This document shows, piece after piece, positions 7,138-57,910 of a stretch of 64,000 nt of DNA (the stretch's first letter is position 1; each line of letters opens with the position of its first letter). The notes under the pieces are model-generated. The model worked only from the letters and a program-made list of their open reading frames with translations, was not told where the DNA came from and did no database searches. The DNA comes from Eledone cirrhosa (Eukaryota). Location: assembly GCA_964016885.1 (NCBI GenBank), contig CAXHJY010000344.1, positions 1 to 64,000 of the forward strand, read 5' to 3'. The translations under genes and the position numbers were made by a program.

Positions 7138-7181
<44 letters not shown>

Positions 7182-7224
7182 GGAAAGAAGGTTTACATGG
7201 TTTGCTATACAAAAAAGTTTTTAA

Positions 7225-7343
7225 TCACATAGCTTACATTTGTTTCACTGAACTGGTATGTCTAGAGATCGCTATTCGCTTAATTTTGCGTTACTCGATC
7301 GCCAATACAGAATTATAACCAGTCAGATCTTCGGAGCATGCGA
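7225..7343 (-). ncRNA. Type I hammerhead-like ribozyme, CCGAAGA core, long stem II
   Basis: Inverted copy of the 7970-8063 motif with 25 extra nt in the stem II extension. Confidence 0.6.
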
Positions 7344-7969
7344 GAATGAAGAAAATACACAGGCAAGAAAAGAAAAGAAAATACAGGCTACTATATGAAG
7401 TAGTAATGGCATTCAATTAGAACAATAACAACAATTACAACAATGCTATCAATAAACTATTTAAGGAGACCCTGACATTACTTAGGTGGGTGGTATATAA
7501 TGTATCTAATGTTACGGCGTGTAAAACTAGCTGTCATAAGGCAAAATGAAGCGTTGGCATGTACAAAGTATCGTAGTGTATATCAATTTTAAATTATAAA
7601 GATAAGCTAGTTTTTACAGTCTTTCTCTTCATCTTCAACAGTATACATGAGTGGGACCACTGTCAAAGCTAAATAGTTGTTGAGTTAATACAGAGGTTAA
7701 CCAATTAATATACGCATATATTTACGCACACACACATACACATATATATATATACACATATATACACATGCATGTGTACATAGACACATACATACACATC
7801 AATATACGCTCGTACAAAAATATACATACATGCAAAGAGAGGGTCTCCTTAAATAGTTTATTGATAGCATTGTTGTAATTGTTGTTATTGTTCTAATTGA
7901 ATGCCATTACTACTTCATATAGTAGCCTGTATTTTCTTTTCTTTTCTTGCCTGTGTATTTTCTTCATTC

Positions 7970-8063
7970 TCGCATGCTCCGAAGATCTGACTGGTAACGC
8001 AAAATTAAGCGGATAGCGATCTCTAGACATACCAGTTCAGTGAAACAAATGTAAGCTATGTGA
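7970..8063 (+). ncRNA. Type I hammerhead-like ribozyme, CCGAAGA core, long stem II
   Basis: Stem I tcgcatgct/agctatgtga. Core CCGAAGA at 7979-7985. Stem II ctgactggt/accagttcag. GAAA at 8042-8045. Stem III AC-aaat-GT. GUA site at 8053. Confidence 0.62.
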
Positions 8064-8282
8064 TTAAAAACTTTTTTGTATAGCAAACCATGTAAACCTT
8101 CTTTCCTGATTTATTATTACTCCAAGTGTTTACAACATAGGAATTACGGCATACCCGCAGCATCACTATGAAAACGCCTTGTTGAGTCAAACCAAGCCAA
8201 GCGTTAATATCATCCACTACCTGGAATACCATAACTGGACTTCACCTAAGTGGACTGCATTTAACTATTATTTGTTAATCCG

Positions 8283-9025
8283 TATATATATATATACTAA
8301 ATATATATATATATACTAAATATATACTATATATATATATATATACTAAATATATACTATATATATATATATATACTAAATATATACTATATATATATAT
8401 ATATACTAAATATATACTATATATATATATATATATACTAAATATATATATACTAAATATATACTATATATATATATATATACTAAATATATATATACTA
8501 AATATATACTATATATATATATATATACTAAATATATACTATATATATATATATATATACTAAATATATATATACTAAATATATACTATATATATATATA
8601 TATACTAAATATATACTATATATATATATATATACTAAATATATACTATATATATATATATATATATACTAAATATATACTATATATATATATATATATA
8701 TACTAAATATATACTATATATATATATATATACTAAATATATACTATATATATATATATATACTAAATATATACTATATATATATATATATATATATACT
8801 AAATATATACTATATATATATATATATACTAAATATATACTATATATATATATATATATACTAAATATATACTATATATATATATATATATACTAAATAT
8901 ATACTATATATATATATATATATATACTAAATATATACTATATATATATATATATACTAAATATATACTATATATATATATATACTAAATATATACTATA
9001 TATATATATATATATACTAAATATA

Positions 9026-9056
<31 letters not shown>
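8283..9056. repeat. (TA)n/CTAAA satellite
   Basis: Units of ctaaatatatactatata(ta)n. Confidence 0.95.
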
Positions 9057-9059
<3 letters not shown>

Positions 9060-9256
9060 TTAAGGATACTATTTATGGTTATGTATATACTAAAACCTTT
9101 TATAGTTATATATATATTAAACCCTAAATAGTGAAAGACAGTAATTTATTACTACCTTATTACCATTAAGATAAATAGCTCAATGTAATAACATCAGTTG
9201 TTCTACAGAGCAGTTATATAGAAAGGAAGTCAAGTATGTAATCAATCATTGAAAAA

Positions 9257-9305
9257 TTGCTTCGAAGACTCCAAACCTCGGCTTGGAAGAAACAATTGTA
9301 AGCGA
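9257..9305 (+). ncRNA. Type I hammerhead-like ribozyme, TCGAAGA core
   Basis: Stem I ttgct/agcga. TCGAAGA at 9262-9268. Stem II tccaa/ttgga. GAAA at 9289-9292. Palindromic ACAATTGT. GUA site at 9300, followed by AATAAA. Confidence 0.55.
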
Positions 9306-9363
9306 ATAAATGGTTTAAACAGAACTTTGATTCATGTAATTTCTATAATTTCTATATATATAC

Positions 9364-9398
<35 letters not shown>

Positions 9399-10067
9399 CT
9401 TTCTATCTACTTACTCTTTCAAATTTTGTGTTCTATGTCAAACCTTCATTTTCTATATTGATGTTTTTATTCAATGCTAACTCATAACATCCAGTAATGA
9501 TTTCATAGAAAATATCTAATAACAGGTTTGTTAAGTCAAATCTTTATAGAACCCTTACTGATGTACAGATAGATCACTGTGAAAATGTACAGTATTAGAA
9601 TAAATAATAATATTTTAATGTAATTCAGTCATAGTTTTTTATTTTGTACTTTTCAACATTGTCTTGCTAATGTGGTATCATGTTATACAGAATGTTAAGT
9701 GGTAAACAGCTAGCCTGTACATTGGAAGTCTCAGAAAATACCATATATACTAGAATAATAGTTGATCTCATGTAAAATTTGACCGCCTTTTTATGGCTAT
9801 AAAATATGGAATTTACCATAGACTTCATATAAAAGTCATGTTTCACAGATAACAGGTTAACATTTATCAAGATATCATTCTGTACATAAAAATAACACTG
9901 TTACAAAATCGTCTTGAATTTAAGACAACTTTATATTATTACAAATATATATCTGAAACTAAAAATATACCGAAACAGTTCGATGGATATGTGTAAAAGA
10001 ACAAGTGTAAGTATTTATAAGAGCTACGTGGTTTTAGCCATGTGTTTTGATGCATAGAAATTGGTAA

Positions 10068-57439: not shown

Positions 57440-57910
57440 GGCACTCCGTCGGTTACGACGACAAGTGTTCTAAGTGACCTGATCAACGAAACAGTCTGCT
57501 CGTGAAATTAACGTGCAAGTGACTGAGCATTCCACAGACATCTCTGGGAGATTCAGCACGAACCGAACGTGACAAGGCTGGCCCTTCGAATTACAGGTAC
57601 AACTCATTTGTACTAGCTTCGGTAGTGTCTTGCTCAAGGATACAACGCTGTGGGAATCGAACTCACGACCTTACGGTTATGAGCCGAATACTTTAACCAC
57701 AAAGCCACGCTTATATATTATAATTGTTTCTACTTTTGGCACAAGGCCAGCAATTACCCAGTGCATTACTGGTACTTTATTTTATCGACCCCGTAAGGAT
57801 GAAAGGCAAAGTTAACCTCGGCGGGATTTGAACTCAGAATGGCAAGGGCCGTAACTCTATGCATCAAAGCATGGCATCCAACCCTCTACCGATACTGCCA
57901 ATTCACCGCT
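57440..57910 (-). mobile_element. SINE family B followed by SINE family A
   Basis: Copies at 57440-57712 and 57722-57910. Confidence 0.85.

What the first reader, a model, noticed from the sequence alone, without database searches (positions are those of the whole stretch)
9257..9310. A second element also has C4 (TCGAAGA) and a perfect ACAATTGT palindrome
Seen: ttgct-TCGAAGA-ctccaa..ttggaa-GAAA-CAATTG-TA-agcga-ataaa inside a roughly 300-bp island between (TA)n tracts. It shares only GAAACAAwTGTAAGC with the 7970 motif; stems I and II differ in sequence yet still pair. Inference: recurrence of YCGAAGA in two diverged elements suggests a real U4C hammerhead subclass rather than decay.
Basis: partly seen in the sequence, partly recalled or inferred. 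Interest (0 to 1): 0.72.

Follow-up and report, generated by a model that had tools for sequence, protein, structure and literature searches.

The report
C4-core hammerhead-like motif of Penelope retroelements
This 290-base island is a short two-armed insertion of the tail of a Penelope-like jumping gene, and it carries a hammerhead-ribozyme-like RNA motif with a C where a U is normally fixed; that C is the norm in thousands of copies in this genome, so the motif is likely a working variant, but self-cutting has not been tested.

Summary
The text at 9257-9310 is exactly as described and is not chance. The island (9055-9348) is not a separate element. It is a short two-armed insertion of the 3' end of a Penelope-like retroelement (PLE) into a (TA)n tract: an inverted 165-nt tail joined to a direct 127-nt arm that carries the motif.

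The motif has the plan of the published PLE minimal hammerhead: short helix I, 7-bp helix II and a palindromic helix III. Its box is CCGANGA, not CUGANGA.

- **C4 is the family state.** Counts are 3279 CCGAAGA against 75 CTGAAGA in the GUA lineages, 88 of the first 100 listed rows in the GUC lineages, and 799 against 3 in the 7970 family.
- **The window's T is private.**
- **The conservation fits a hammerhead.** Across sub-lineages N7 takes all four bases, position 17 is fixed as A or C only, loop 2 varies, and helix II shows compensatory changes. The rest of the core is invariant, although the two PLE proteins share only 36% identity.

Rfam finds no hammerhead, even in natural U4 copies. No RNA data were available. 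Of 100 inverted arms, none ends at the predicted cut site. Cleavage is therefore untested. I class this as a new variant of a known kind, of moderate interest.

The parts
9055..9221 (-). Inverted arm (Y'). It is the reverse complement of the 165-nt 3' tail (Y) that follows the motif module in about half of the copies of this PLE family. It begins directly at the (TA)n tract.
   Evidence: In 23 of 46 motif modules Y follows H on the same strand. In 8 of 8 two-armed loci exactly one arm carries it.
9222..9348 (+). Direct arm (H). It is the 3'-terminal module of the PLE family, equal to the last ~125 nt before the (TC)n/(TA)n in copies L103-L105 (5'-truncated, with about 240-500 aa of ORF). It ends ...GTAATTTCTATA at the (TA)n tract.
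   Evidence: The junction with Y' at 9221/9222 is unique to this copy. Loose ends fall at 9220-9224.
9257..9261 (+). Helix I, 5' strand (UUGCU, positions 2.5-2.1).
   Evidence: pairs 2.1-2.3 are formed in 49-54 of 55 rows. Pair 4 is A-U, G.U or U-A. Pair 5 is mostly unpaired.
9262..9268 (+). Core box TCGAAGA. The family state is CCGAAGA (C3 C4 G5 A6 N7 G8 A9). The T at 9262 is private to this copy.
9269..9288 (+). Helix II hairpin. It has an unpaired or mismatched 10.1 (C, 9269) and 11.1 (A, 9288), a 7-bp stem (9270-9276 with 9281-9287) and loop CUCG (9277-9280). The C at 9282 is a private change that gives an A.C mismatch.
9289..9300 (+). G12 A13 A14 (9289-9291), then the palindromic helix III/loop 3 ACAAUUGU (9292-9299), then A17 (9300). 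The predicted cleavage site lies between 9300 and 9301.
   Evidence: These columns are invariant in A1.
9301..9305 (+). Helix I, 3' strand (AGCGA, positions 1.1-1.5).
8283..9056 (.). (TA)n-rich tract. It is the shared insertion target between the 7970 PLE copy and this island.
9353..9398 (.). (TA)n tract on the 3' side.
7974..8062 (+). The '7970' motif, in the 3' UTR of a second PLE family. It has box CCGAAGA at 7979-7985, a long helix II with a U.U 10.1/11.1 mismatch, GAAAC-AAAU-GUA at 8042-8053 and helix I AGC... from 8054. This arm runs on to 8282 with a ~175-nt tail.
7181..7473 (-). Inverted partner arm of the 7970 PLE copy. Its box is at 7334-7328 and GAAAC... at 7246-7235. It ends at the (TA)n tract without the tail.

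Best explanation
The island is a short two-armed insertion of the 3' end of a Penelope-like retroelement into a (TA)n tract. Its motif is that element family's hammerhead-type RNA module, with C instead of U at core position 4. The module is likely kept by selection and predicted to act as a weak, dimer-dependent self-cleaving ribozyme on element transcripts.

**Shown**
- The anatomy is an inverted tail arm (9055-9221) plus a direct arm (9222-9348).
- The same module sits at the 3' end of copies that encode the reverse transcriptase and GIY-YIG-type endonuclease.
- C4 is the state of more than 5000 copies in at least three motif lineages.
- Variation falls where hammerheads tolerate it: N7, position 17 as A or C, loop 2 and the 10.1/11.1 pair. 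Helix II changes are compensated.
- This copy carries two private, probably disabling changes: C3 to U, and an A.C mismatch in helix II.

**Inferred**
- Master copies are under selection for the hammerhead fold.
- Two motif copies pair through the palindrome ACAAUUGU to form an 8-bp helix III, and cleavage follows GUA or GUC.
- C4 is tolerated in vivo.
- The two arms arise when two primers from the cut (TA)n target copy the element RNA, one from its 3' end and one from the internal UAUA after the motif module.
For: **Architecture**
- 29 copies were aligned. Each of the 17 copies with a direct arm like the window's has its own junction.
- Of 46 motif modules, 23 are followed by the tail Y and 23 by a microsatellite. 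In 8 of 8 two-armed loci exactly one arm has Y.
- Copies L103-L105 carry the same module about 1.5 kb after the ORF stop (L104).
- The 7970 copy in the window has the same one-tailed, two-armed plan.

**PLE identity**
- The ORFs end in CNCx5-6CPLx3-4C, YIGST..R..H and C.LC...C.H motifs, downstream of YRDD.
- Full-length relatives are 897-970 aa (the six aligned) and have FD..FYPSI.
- The nearest atlas clusters carry GIY-YIG and RVT_1.
- The published PLE traits (TA)n targets, inverted arms, a tail at one end and a hammerhead near the 3' end come from PMC8557442 (passages).

**C4 is fixed**
- Counts: 3279 against 75; 90 of 100 unbiased rows; 88 of 100 rows in the GUC set of 1475; 799 against 3.
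- Contig depth at 9262 reads C, and no alternative to C is listed at 9263.

**Hammerhead-type constraint**
- 55 distinct rows show an invariant core, 88.6% of cells paired against 22-42% when the partners are slid, and A-U to G-C changes at two helix II pairs (7 and 3 rows).
- The covariation score is 0.100 against 0.074 in shuffles; 0 of 500 shuffles reach it.
- GUG and GUU occur only 45 times, sporadically.
- The motif is shared by PLE families whose endonuclease regions are 36% identical.

**Fold and precedents**
- The double-hammerhead dimer is the predicted minimum-energy fold for three of five copies tested.
- The plan matches the published PLE minimal hammerhead: long helix II, short helix I and a palindromic helix III (PMC4209133, main text parts 1-2 and supplement file 2).
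- Precedents exist: a U4C viroid variant that works in vivo, and a natural U10.1-U11.1 mismatch (PMC3088659, section 8 and passages).
Against: - No Rfam hammerhead model matches at E up to 10, either here or in family copies. The four natural CTGAAGA copies searched fail as well, so this mainly shows that the models do not cover this minimal form.
- U4C is reported to lower activity considerably in vitro (PMC3088659).
- The G10.1-C11.1 pair, called highly conserved in PLE minimal hammerheads (PMC4209133), is absent.
- Published PLE minimal hammerheads cleave poorly in vitro even with a canonical core.
- Of 100 tail-anchored arms, 89 read through the predicted cut site, 11 stop short of it and 0 end at it. 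The DNA therefore records no cleaved template.
- Most genomic arrangements are head-to-head, which does not place two motifs on one strand for dimer formation.
- Covariation within the family is modest, and related sequences can exceed shuffles without any structure (caveat given).
- Dead copies evolve neutrally. Selection is inferred only from differences between lineages.
Confidence: 0.55

Rival explanations
1. The motif is a catalytically dead descendant of the PLE hammerhead. It is kept in master copies because the folded 3' module is what the element's reverse transcriptase or endonuclease recognises, or because it stalls or positions reverse transcription. On this view C4 and the lost G10.1-C11.1 pair mark the loss of cleavage.
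For: - U4C and 10.1/11.1 mismatches lower activity in vitro (PMC3088659).
- Of 100 inverted arms, 0 end at the predicted cut site and 89 read through it.
- Cleavage there would sever the last ~47-212 nt, which are exactly the ends found in genomic copies.
- 12 of 29 copies have their arm junction at the helix II hairpin, so the structure does influence reverse transcription.
- Naiad PLEs proliferate without a canonical hammerhead (PMC8557442).
- U4 revertants made by CpG decay have not founded any sub-lineage.
Against: The conservation pattern is what catalysis demands, not merely what a fold demands. G5, A6, G8, A9, G12, A13, A14, A15.1 and U16.1 are invariant in 55 distinct rows and across families with 36% protein identity. 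N7 takes all four bases, and position 17 is fixed only as A or C. A protein-binding role does not obviously predict that pattern.
Confidence: 0.3
2. The island is a unit of a non-autonomous element that propagates on its own, either a SINE or a non-LTR retrozyme. Its RNA would be cut by the ribozyme, circularised and copied back into the genome.
For: - The copy number is high: 2965 first-look candidates for the island.
- Animal retrozymes are proposed to be PLE derivatives (bioRxiv 10.64898/2026.07.22.740005, abstract only; PMC7229834, search listing only).
Against: - The copies are not in tandem.
- All 17 copies with a direct arm like the window's have different junctions, so no master of this form was copied.
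- Both parts are the 3' end of coding PLE copies.
- No joint in the contigs indicates a circle.
Confidence: 0.05
3. The motif is a chance resemblance, or a decayed canonical hammerhead, with no constraint on C4.
For: - This particular copy does carry two decay changes, at 9262 and 9282.
- No Rfam hit was found.
Against: - Shuffles and reversed-pattern controls give 0.
- C4 outnumbers U4 by 3279 to 75 and by 799 to 3.
- CpG decay runs from C4 to U4, not the other way.
Confidence: 0.03

Closest known systems
Minimal hammerhead motifs of metazoan Penelope-like elements (Cervera and de la Pena 2014, PMC4209133; main text parts 1-2 and passages of supplement file 2 read)
   Same: - Type I topology in the 3' region or pLTR of a PLE.
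- Long helix II (7-8 bp) and short helix I (3-5 bp) with AU-rich flanks.
- GAAA followed by a very short helix III whose 15.2-16.2 pair and loop 3 are palindromic, so that two motifs can form a dimer.
- U16.1 followed by H17.
- Thousands of dispersed copies, often close together on opposite strands.
   Different: - The box is CCGANGA instead of the published consensus CUGANGA. The supplement passages I saw list only CUGANGA and the U3-A8 covariant.
- The G10.1-C11.1 pair is replaced by a variable, mostly mismatched pair (C.A, A.G, C.U, U.U or U-A).
Natural hammerhead core variants (Perreault et al. 2011, PMC3088659; section 8 and passages read)
   Same: - A U4C variant of a viroid hammerhead is cited as much less active in vitro but sufficient in vivo.
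- A natural U10.1-U11.1 mismatch is reported and called the best-tolerated mispair.
- Tertiary contacts are proposed to offset core defects.
   Different: Those are single sequences or rare variants. Here C4 is fixed in several retroelement lineages with thousands of copies in an animal genome, and it is combined with a non-canonical 10.1/11.1 pair.
Canonical C-terminal-endonuclease PLEs and their insertion structures (Craig et al. 2021, PMC8557442; passages read)
   Same: - The ORF runs from reverse transcriptase to a C-terminal GIY-YIG-type endonuclease with a cysteine-rich linker.
- Insertion into (TA)n microsatellites.
- An inverted 5'-truncated copy next to a direct one.
- An extension ('tail') at only one end.
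- A hammerhead near the 3' end.
   Different: - The tail here is about 165-175 nt rather than the 30-40 bp quoted.
- That paper states that canonical hammerheads are universal in PLEs other than Naiad and Chlamys. These families are an exception in the core.
Metazoan non-LTR retrozymes (Cervera and de la Pena 2020, PMC7229834; seen only in search listings here)
   Same: Short non-coding repeats with type I hammerheads, linked to PLEs.
   Different: Retrozymes are tandem arrays of unit repeats that give circular RNAs. This island is a single two-armed truncated PLE insertion with a junction of its own.

Membership tests
Hammerhead ribozyme (type I core consensus) | 5' core box C3 U4 G5 A6 N7 G8 A9 | tested here: not met
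   The family reads C3 C4 G5 A6 N7 G8 A9. The window copy reads U3 C4. Six of the seven positions fit; U4 does not.
Hammerhead ribozyme (type I core consensus) | G12 A13 A14, an A15.1-U16.1 pair, and a cleavage-site nucleotide H17 that is not G | tested here: met
   These are invariant in 55 of 55 distinct rows. Position 17 is A (3279 copies) or C (1475). G and U together occur only 45 times, sporadically.
Hammerhead ribozyme (type I core consensus) | Three helices around the core, supported by covariation | tested here: met
   88.6% of cells are paired against 22-42% when slid. Compensatory changes occur at two helix II pairs and one helix I pair. Helix III is only 2 bp within one molecule. 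The support is moderate, and the tool's caveat about related sequences applies.
Hammerhead ribozyme (type I core consensus) | Match to the curated covariance models (Rfam Hammerhead_1, Hammerhead_3, Hammerhead_II, HH9, HH10) | tested here: not met
   There is no hammerhead hit at E up to 10 in window 7600-9800 or in 6 family loci, 4 of which are natural CTGAAGA copies.
Hammerhead ribozyme (type I core consensus) | Site-specific self-cleavage | not testable with these tools
   No RNA run was listed. A DNA footprint was looked for and not found: 0 of 100 arms end at the site.
PLE minimal hammerhead (Cervera and de la Pena 2014) | Location in the terminal repeat or 3' region of a PLE | tested here: met
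PLE minimal hammerhead (Cervera and de la Pena 2014) | Long helix II, short helix I, and palindromic 15.2-16.2 plus loop 3 that allow a dimer | tested here: met
   Helix II is 7 bp and helix I is 3-5 bp. CAAUUG is invariant. The dimer with an 8-bp helix III is the predicted minimum-energy fold in 3 of 5 copies. The 7970 family has CAAAUG, which is an imperfect palindrome.
PLE minimal hammerhead (Cervera and de la Pena 2014) | Conserved G10.1-C11.1 pair, with one extra nucleotide between A9 and G10.1 | tested here: not met
   The positions flanking the 7-bp stem read A/G, C/A, U/A, C/U, C/C and others, and U/U in the 7970 family. The first stem pair is U-A.
Penelope-like element | A single ORF with reverse transcriptase followed by a GIY-YIG endonuclease with CCHH cysteines | tested here: inconclusive
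   The motifs can be read in the alignment: FD..FYPSI, YRDD, CNC..CPL..C, YIG.T..R..H and C.LC..C.H. Full-length relatives are 897-970 aa (the six aligned). Pfam gives only a sub-threshold GIY-YIG match in one relative (E 0.0011). Atlas neighbours carry GIY-YIG and RVT_1. No phylogeny was made.
Penelope-like element | Two-armed (inverted plus direct) insertions, a tail at one end, and a microsatellite target | tested here: met
Metazoan non-LTR retrozyme | Tandem arrays of 170-400-bp units, each with a hammerhead | tested here: not met
   The island is single. Tandem Repeats Finder reports only (TA)n and a 27-bp doublet. The junctions differ between copies.

The most novel reading that the evidence does not exclude
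A whole clade of animal Penelope-like retroelements runs on a hammerhead ribozyme whose 'invariant' U4 is C and whose G10.1-C11.1 pair is gone. The clade includes at least three motif lineages, more than 5000 copies, and proteins down to 36% identity. If these motifs cleave, U4 is not essential for hammerhead catalysis in a natural extended or dimeric context. Searches with CUGANGA descriptors would then have missed an entire class of eukaryotic hammerheads.
Probability: 0.4. Interest if true: 0.65.

Novelty: new variant of a known kind. Interest (0 to 1): 0.45.

Why it matters
Hammerhead searches in eukaryotes, including those that defined PLE hammerheads, fix the box as CUGANGA. A C4 lineage of this size would be invisible to them. 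That may explain some PLE families reported as lacking a canonical hammerhead.

The case also gives a natural test of an open question: do PLE hammerhead motifs serve by cutting RNA, or as structural signals? The same genome holds about 3000 copies of a canonical-core motif family beside more than 5000 C4 copies. U4 'revertants' arise by CpG decay and never spread.

A cleavage assay comparing C4 with U4 on these natural scaffolds is simple and informative either way. For the window itself the result is ordinary: a dead, mutated copy of an abundant retroelement tail.

Tried and rejected
- **Rfam, gathering thresholds, whole window.** Only a tRNA-like hit at 57650-57707(-).
- **Rfam at E up to 10.** It was run on 7600-9800 and on six family loci. 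The hits were only low-complexity or hairpin microRNA look-alikes below threshold, and no hammerhead.
- **The look-up of sequencing runs, kind rna.** No RNA holder was listed. The four coded runs are contigs of unknown kind from one study.
- **Read laying on those runs.** It served only to read the family state at 9262, 9263 and 9282 and the loose ends at the arm junction. It says nothing on expression, RNA ends or circles.
- **Metagenome scan with CCGANGA-N18-26-GAAACAATTGTMAGC.** It returned 9 stretches, all without a helix II and in unrelated GC-rich sequence. I treat them as chance matches, so there is no cross-species evidence.
- **DNA footprint of cleavage.** The test was whether inverted arms end at the predicted cut site. 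0 of 100 do. One copy (L011) stops 5 nt short.
- **Pfam on the ORF fragments and on six full-length relatives.** One sub-threshold GIY-YIG match only.
- **Lunse, Weinberg and Breaker, RNA Biol (PMC5785218).** This is the main paper on small PLE hammerhead variants. It is not held, so whether it lists C4 variants is unknown to me.
- **Literature searches.** 'hammerhead ribozyme' + 'U4C' found one paper. 'hammerhead' + 'octopus' + 'Penelope' found nothing on this variant.
- **Rejected: the 290-bp island as a SINE with a master copy.** The junctions all differ.
- **Rejected: inversion polymorphism as the cause of the opposite-strand matches.** Those matches are the second arms of hairpin-type copies.
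- **Unexplained.** Searches give the same total of 3279 for different patterns. This may be coincidence or an unstated cap. If it is a cap, the C4 count is a lower bound.

Full report
**1. Observation**

The palindrome ACAATTGT is at 9292-9299.

The island (9055-9348) lies between a 774-bp (TA)n-rich tract (8283-9056) and a second (TA)n tract (9353-9398).

The composite pattern is found once in the window against 0.00 expected in shuffles. Its 3' half occurs three times against 0.03 expected: here, at 8042-8056(+), which is the '7970' motif, and at 7232-7246(-).

**2. What the island is**

The island is one of thousands of similar stretches in the 3.0-Gb genome (2965 first-look candidates). 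Aligning 29 copies and mapping them onto modules shows that it has two parts.

- **H (9222-9348)** is the last ~125 nt of copies that encode a reverse transcriptase and endonuclease ORF. There it lies about 1.5 kb after the stop codon (seen in L104) and is followed by (TC)n/(TA)n (L103-L105).
- **Y' (9055-9221)** is the reverse complement of a 165-nt tail, Y. Y follows H on the same strand in 23 of 46 motif modules sampled; the other 23 end in a microsatellite or other sequence.

In 8 of 8 loci where both arms were captured, exactly one arm has Y. The general plan is therefore (TA)n - [Y'-H'-...] - [...-H] - (TA)n, with an inverted arm that starts with the tail and a direct arm that ends with H.

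In the window the inverted arm stops at the end of Y' and the direct arm begins 40 nt before the motif box. All 17 copies with a direct arm like the window's have different junctions. The other 12 of 29 turn at the helix II hairpin and form ~75-nt perfect foldbacks.

The island is therefore an individual, truncated insertion event and not a copy of a 290-bp master element. Loose ends of sequencing contigs at 9220-9224 mark the same junction.

The '7970' motif belongs to a second family with the same plan. A minus-strand arm (7181-7473) ends at (TA)n soon after the motif. A plus-strand arm (7840-8282) carries a further ~175-nt tail. Both insertions sit in the same (TA)n tract.

**3. The elements are Penelope-like**

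- The ORFs end in a cysteine-rich linker (CNCx5-6CPLx3-4C), a YIGST..R..H..S block and C.LC...C.H, downstream of YRDD.
- Full-length relatives from public data (the six aligned) are 897-970 aa and have FD..FYPSI and YRDD reverse transcriptase motifs.
- Pfam recognises only a sub-threshold GIY-YIG match in one relative.
- The nearest atlas clusters carry HTH_animal, GIY-YIG and RVT_1.

Published traits of endonuclease-bearing PLEs match as well: (TA)n targeting, inverted 5'-truncated partner copies, a tail at one end and a hammerhead near the 3' end (PMC8557442, passages). I made no phylogeny, so the clade within PLEs is open.

**4. The motif across the genome**

Counts of the two box forms:

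| Lineage or sample | C4 form | U4 form |
|---|---|---|
| GUA lineages, box plus GAAACAATTGTAAGC | 3279 (CCGAAGA) | 75 (CTGAAGA) |
| Sample anchored outside the box, first 100 rows | 90 CCGAAGA | 0 CTGAAGA, 1 CTGAACA |
| GUC lineages (1475 in all), first 100 rows | 88 | 12 |
| 7970 family | 799 | 3 |

Reversed-pattern controls were 0 throughout. The other 9 rows of the sample were 3 CCGAACA, 2 CCGAAAA, 2 CCAAAGA, 1 CCGATGA and 1 CCGAAGG.

C4-G5 is a CpG, so the scattered U4 copies are what deamination of dead copies gives. The change runs from C4 to U4.

The window's T at 9262 (position 3) is read as C in essentially all contig depth. Its C at 9282 is read as T. This copy therefore has two private changes: C3 to U, and an A.C mismatch in helix II.

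**5. Is it constrained like a hammerhead?**

I aligned 55 distinct 59-nt motif rows. They came from 69 distinct instances, after I dropped 10 CTGAAGA rows that had been sampled on purpose and 4 rows with indels. Because of that exclusion, the invariance of C4 in this alignment is by selection; the counts in section 4 are the evidence for C4.

- **Invariant:** G5, A6, G8, A9, G12-A14, A15.1, C15.2, AAUU, G16.2 and U16.1.
- **Variable:** N7 is A, U, G or C. Loop 2 is CUCG, UUCC, GAAA, UAAA, UUAA or CUAG. The 10.1/11.1 positions also vary.
- **Position 17:** it is fixed as A or C. G and U together occur 45 times, scattered over all backgrounds.
- **Pairing:** on the hammerhead structure 88.6% of cells pair, against 22-42% when the partners are slid.
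- **Compensation:** two helix II pairs show A-U to G-C changes (7 and 3 rows), and one helix I pair shows U-A to A-U (2 rows).
- **Covariation score:** 0.100 against 0.074 in shuffles, reached by 0 of 500. The tool's caveat applies: related sequences can beat shuffles without any structure.

The 7970 family keeps GCU-CCGAAGA and GAAAC-AAAU-GUA-AGC. Its helix II is quite different and longer, and its distal helix I also differs. Its endonuclease region is only 36% identical over 283 aa to that of the other family.

For three of five copies tested, including a consensus-like one, the predicted minimum-energy dimer is the double hammerhead with an 8-bp ACAAUUGU helix III.

**6. Against activity**

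- Rfam finds no hammerhead here or in family loci. The four natural U4 copies searched fail too, so the models simply do not cover this minimal form.
- U4C is reported to lower activity considerably in vitro, although a viroid with it remains infectious (PMC3088659).
- The G10.1-C11.1 pair, stressed as conserved in PLE minimal hammerheads (PMC4209133), is replaced by mismatches. A natural U.U mismatch at that place is documented and called the best tolerated (PMC3088659).
- PLE minimal hammerheads with canonical cores already cleave poorly in vitro.
- Of 100 tail-anchored arms, 89 read through the predicted cut site, 11 stop before it and none ends at it.
- No RNA data could be laid.

**7. Comparison and novelty**

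The closest known thing is the metazoan PLE minimal hammerhead. Its published consensus is NNN-CUGANGA-H-G...C-GAAA-N-palindrome-N-U-H-NNN (supplement file 2 of PMC4209133, passages). The motif here agrees in place, topology, helix lengths, palindromic helix III and the GAAA/UH elements. It differs at U4 and at 10.1/11.1.

The passages I saw list only CUGANGA and the U3-A8 covariant. My literature searches found no report of a C4 PLE lineage. The key paper on small PLE hammerhead variants (PMC5785218) could not be read.

The same genome holds 2985 copies of a repeat with a canonical CUGAGGA...GAAAC core. C4 is therefore specific to these lineages and is not a property of the genome.

Earlier notes of this scan report two-armed Penelope-type repeats in this genome and C4 cores in phage hammerheads. 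I treat them as leads only.

**8. Verdict**

It is wrong on the Y at position 3 and on the independence of the two elements. Ribozyme activity is unproven.

I class this as a new variant of a known kind, of moderate interest. The window copy itself is a dead, mutated insertion.

Noticed in passing
window 57650-57707 (-): A partial tRNA match (Rfam RF00005, 36.2 bits, model positions 8-63 of 71). A near-identical partial tRNA-like hit appears in locus L064 (1215-1272, 28.1 bits), so it may be part of a tRNA-derived repeat.
   Followed up: no
window 8283-9056: The 774-bp '(TA)n' tract is not pure. Between about 8900 and 9030 it holds repeated TATATACTAAA-(TA)n units of roughly 31-33 bp. A PLE insertion lies at each end of the tract.
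   Followed up: partly
window 7990-8010 versus loci L032-L060: The window's plus-strand copy of the 7970 family lacks about 25 nt of the long helix II insert. That insert is present in the minus-strand arm (7181-7473) and in nearly all other copies.
   Followed up: no
loci L008, L010, L012, L014-L016, L018-L021, L023, L024: 12 of 29 island-like copies are ~75-nt perfect foldbacks whose turn lies in the helix II loop. The loop occurs in both orientations (GAGG or TCGG). This suggests a recurrent template switch or snap-back of reverse transcription at that hairpin.
   Followed up: partly
L056 1139-1170 (+) and its mirror on the minus strand; G000-wide: Another repeat family carries a canonical-core minimal hammerhead-like motif (CUGAGGA-UCCGCUAAGGU-GAAAC-ACUU-GUU) in head-to-head palindromes. 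The 23-nt probe has 2985 exact matches in the genome.
   Followed up: partly
L042 minus strand, around position 2236 of the reverse complement: A further motif, UUCGAAGA-CCUUUUG...CAAAAG-C-GAAAC-GCGC-GUC, has a box that also reads CGAAGA. It may be another non-canonical family.
   Followed up: no
L056 (3018 on +, 459 on -): Two copies of GAAACAUUUGUA are preceded by CCUGAAAGAAGCC. This looks like a box with an extra A and may be another variant family.
   Followed up: no
L101 1979-2114: A 136-nt near-perfect hairpin scores 63 bits against a plant microRNA model (below its gathering score). It is most likely another inverted-repeat insertion.
   Followed up: no
G000 C1:30850377 (-) and 30850474 (+): The two arms of one insertion differ at core position 4: one has U4 and the other C4. 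This shows change after insertion, or between the two templates.
   Followed up: no
Two different patterns gave the same total of 3279 matches (1586+1693 and 1585+1694). This may be coincidence or an unstated cap on the count.
   Followed up: no
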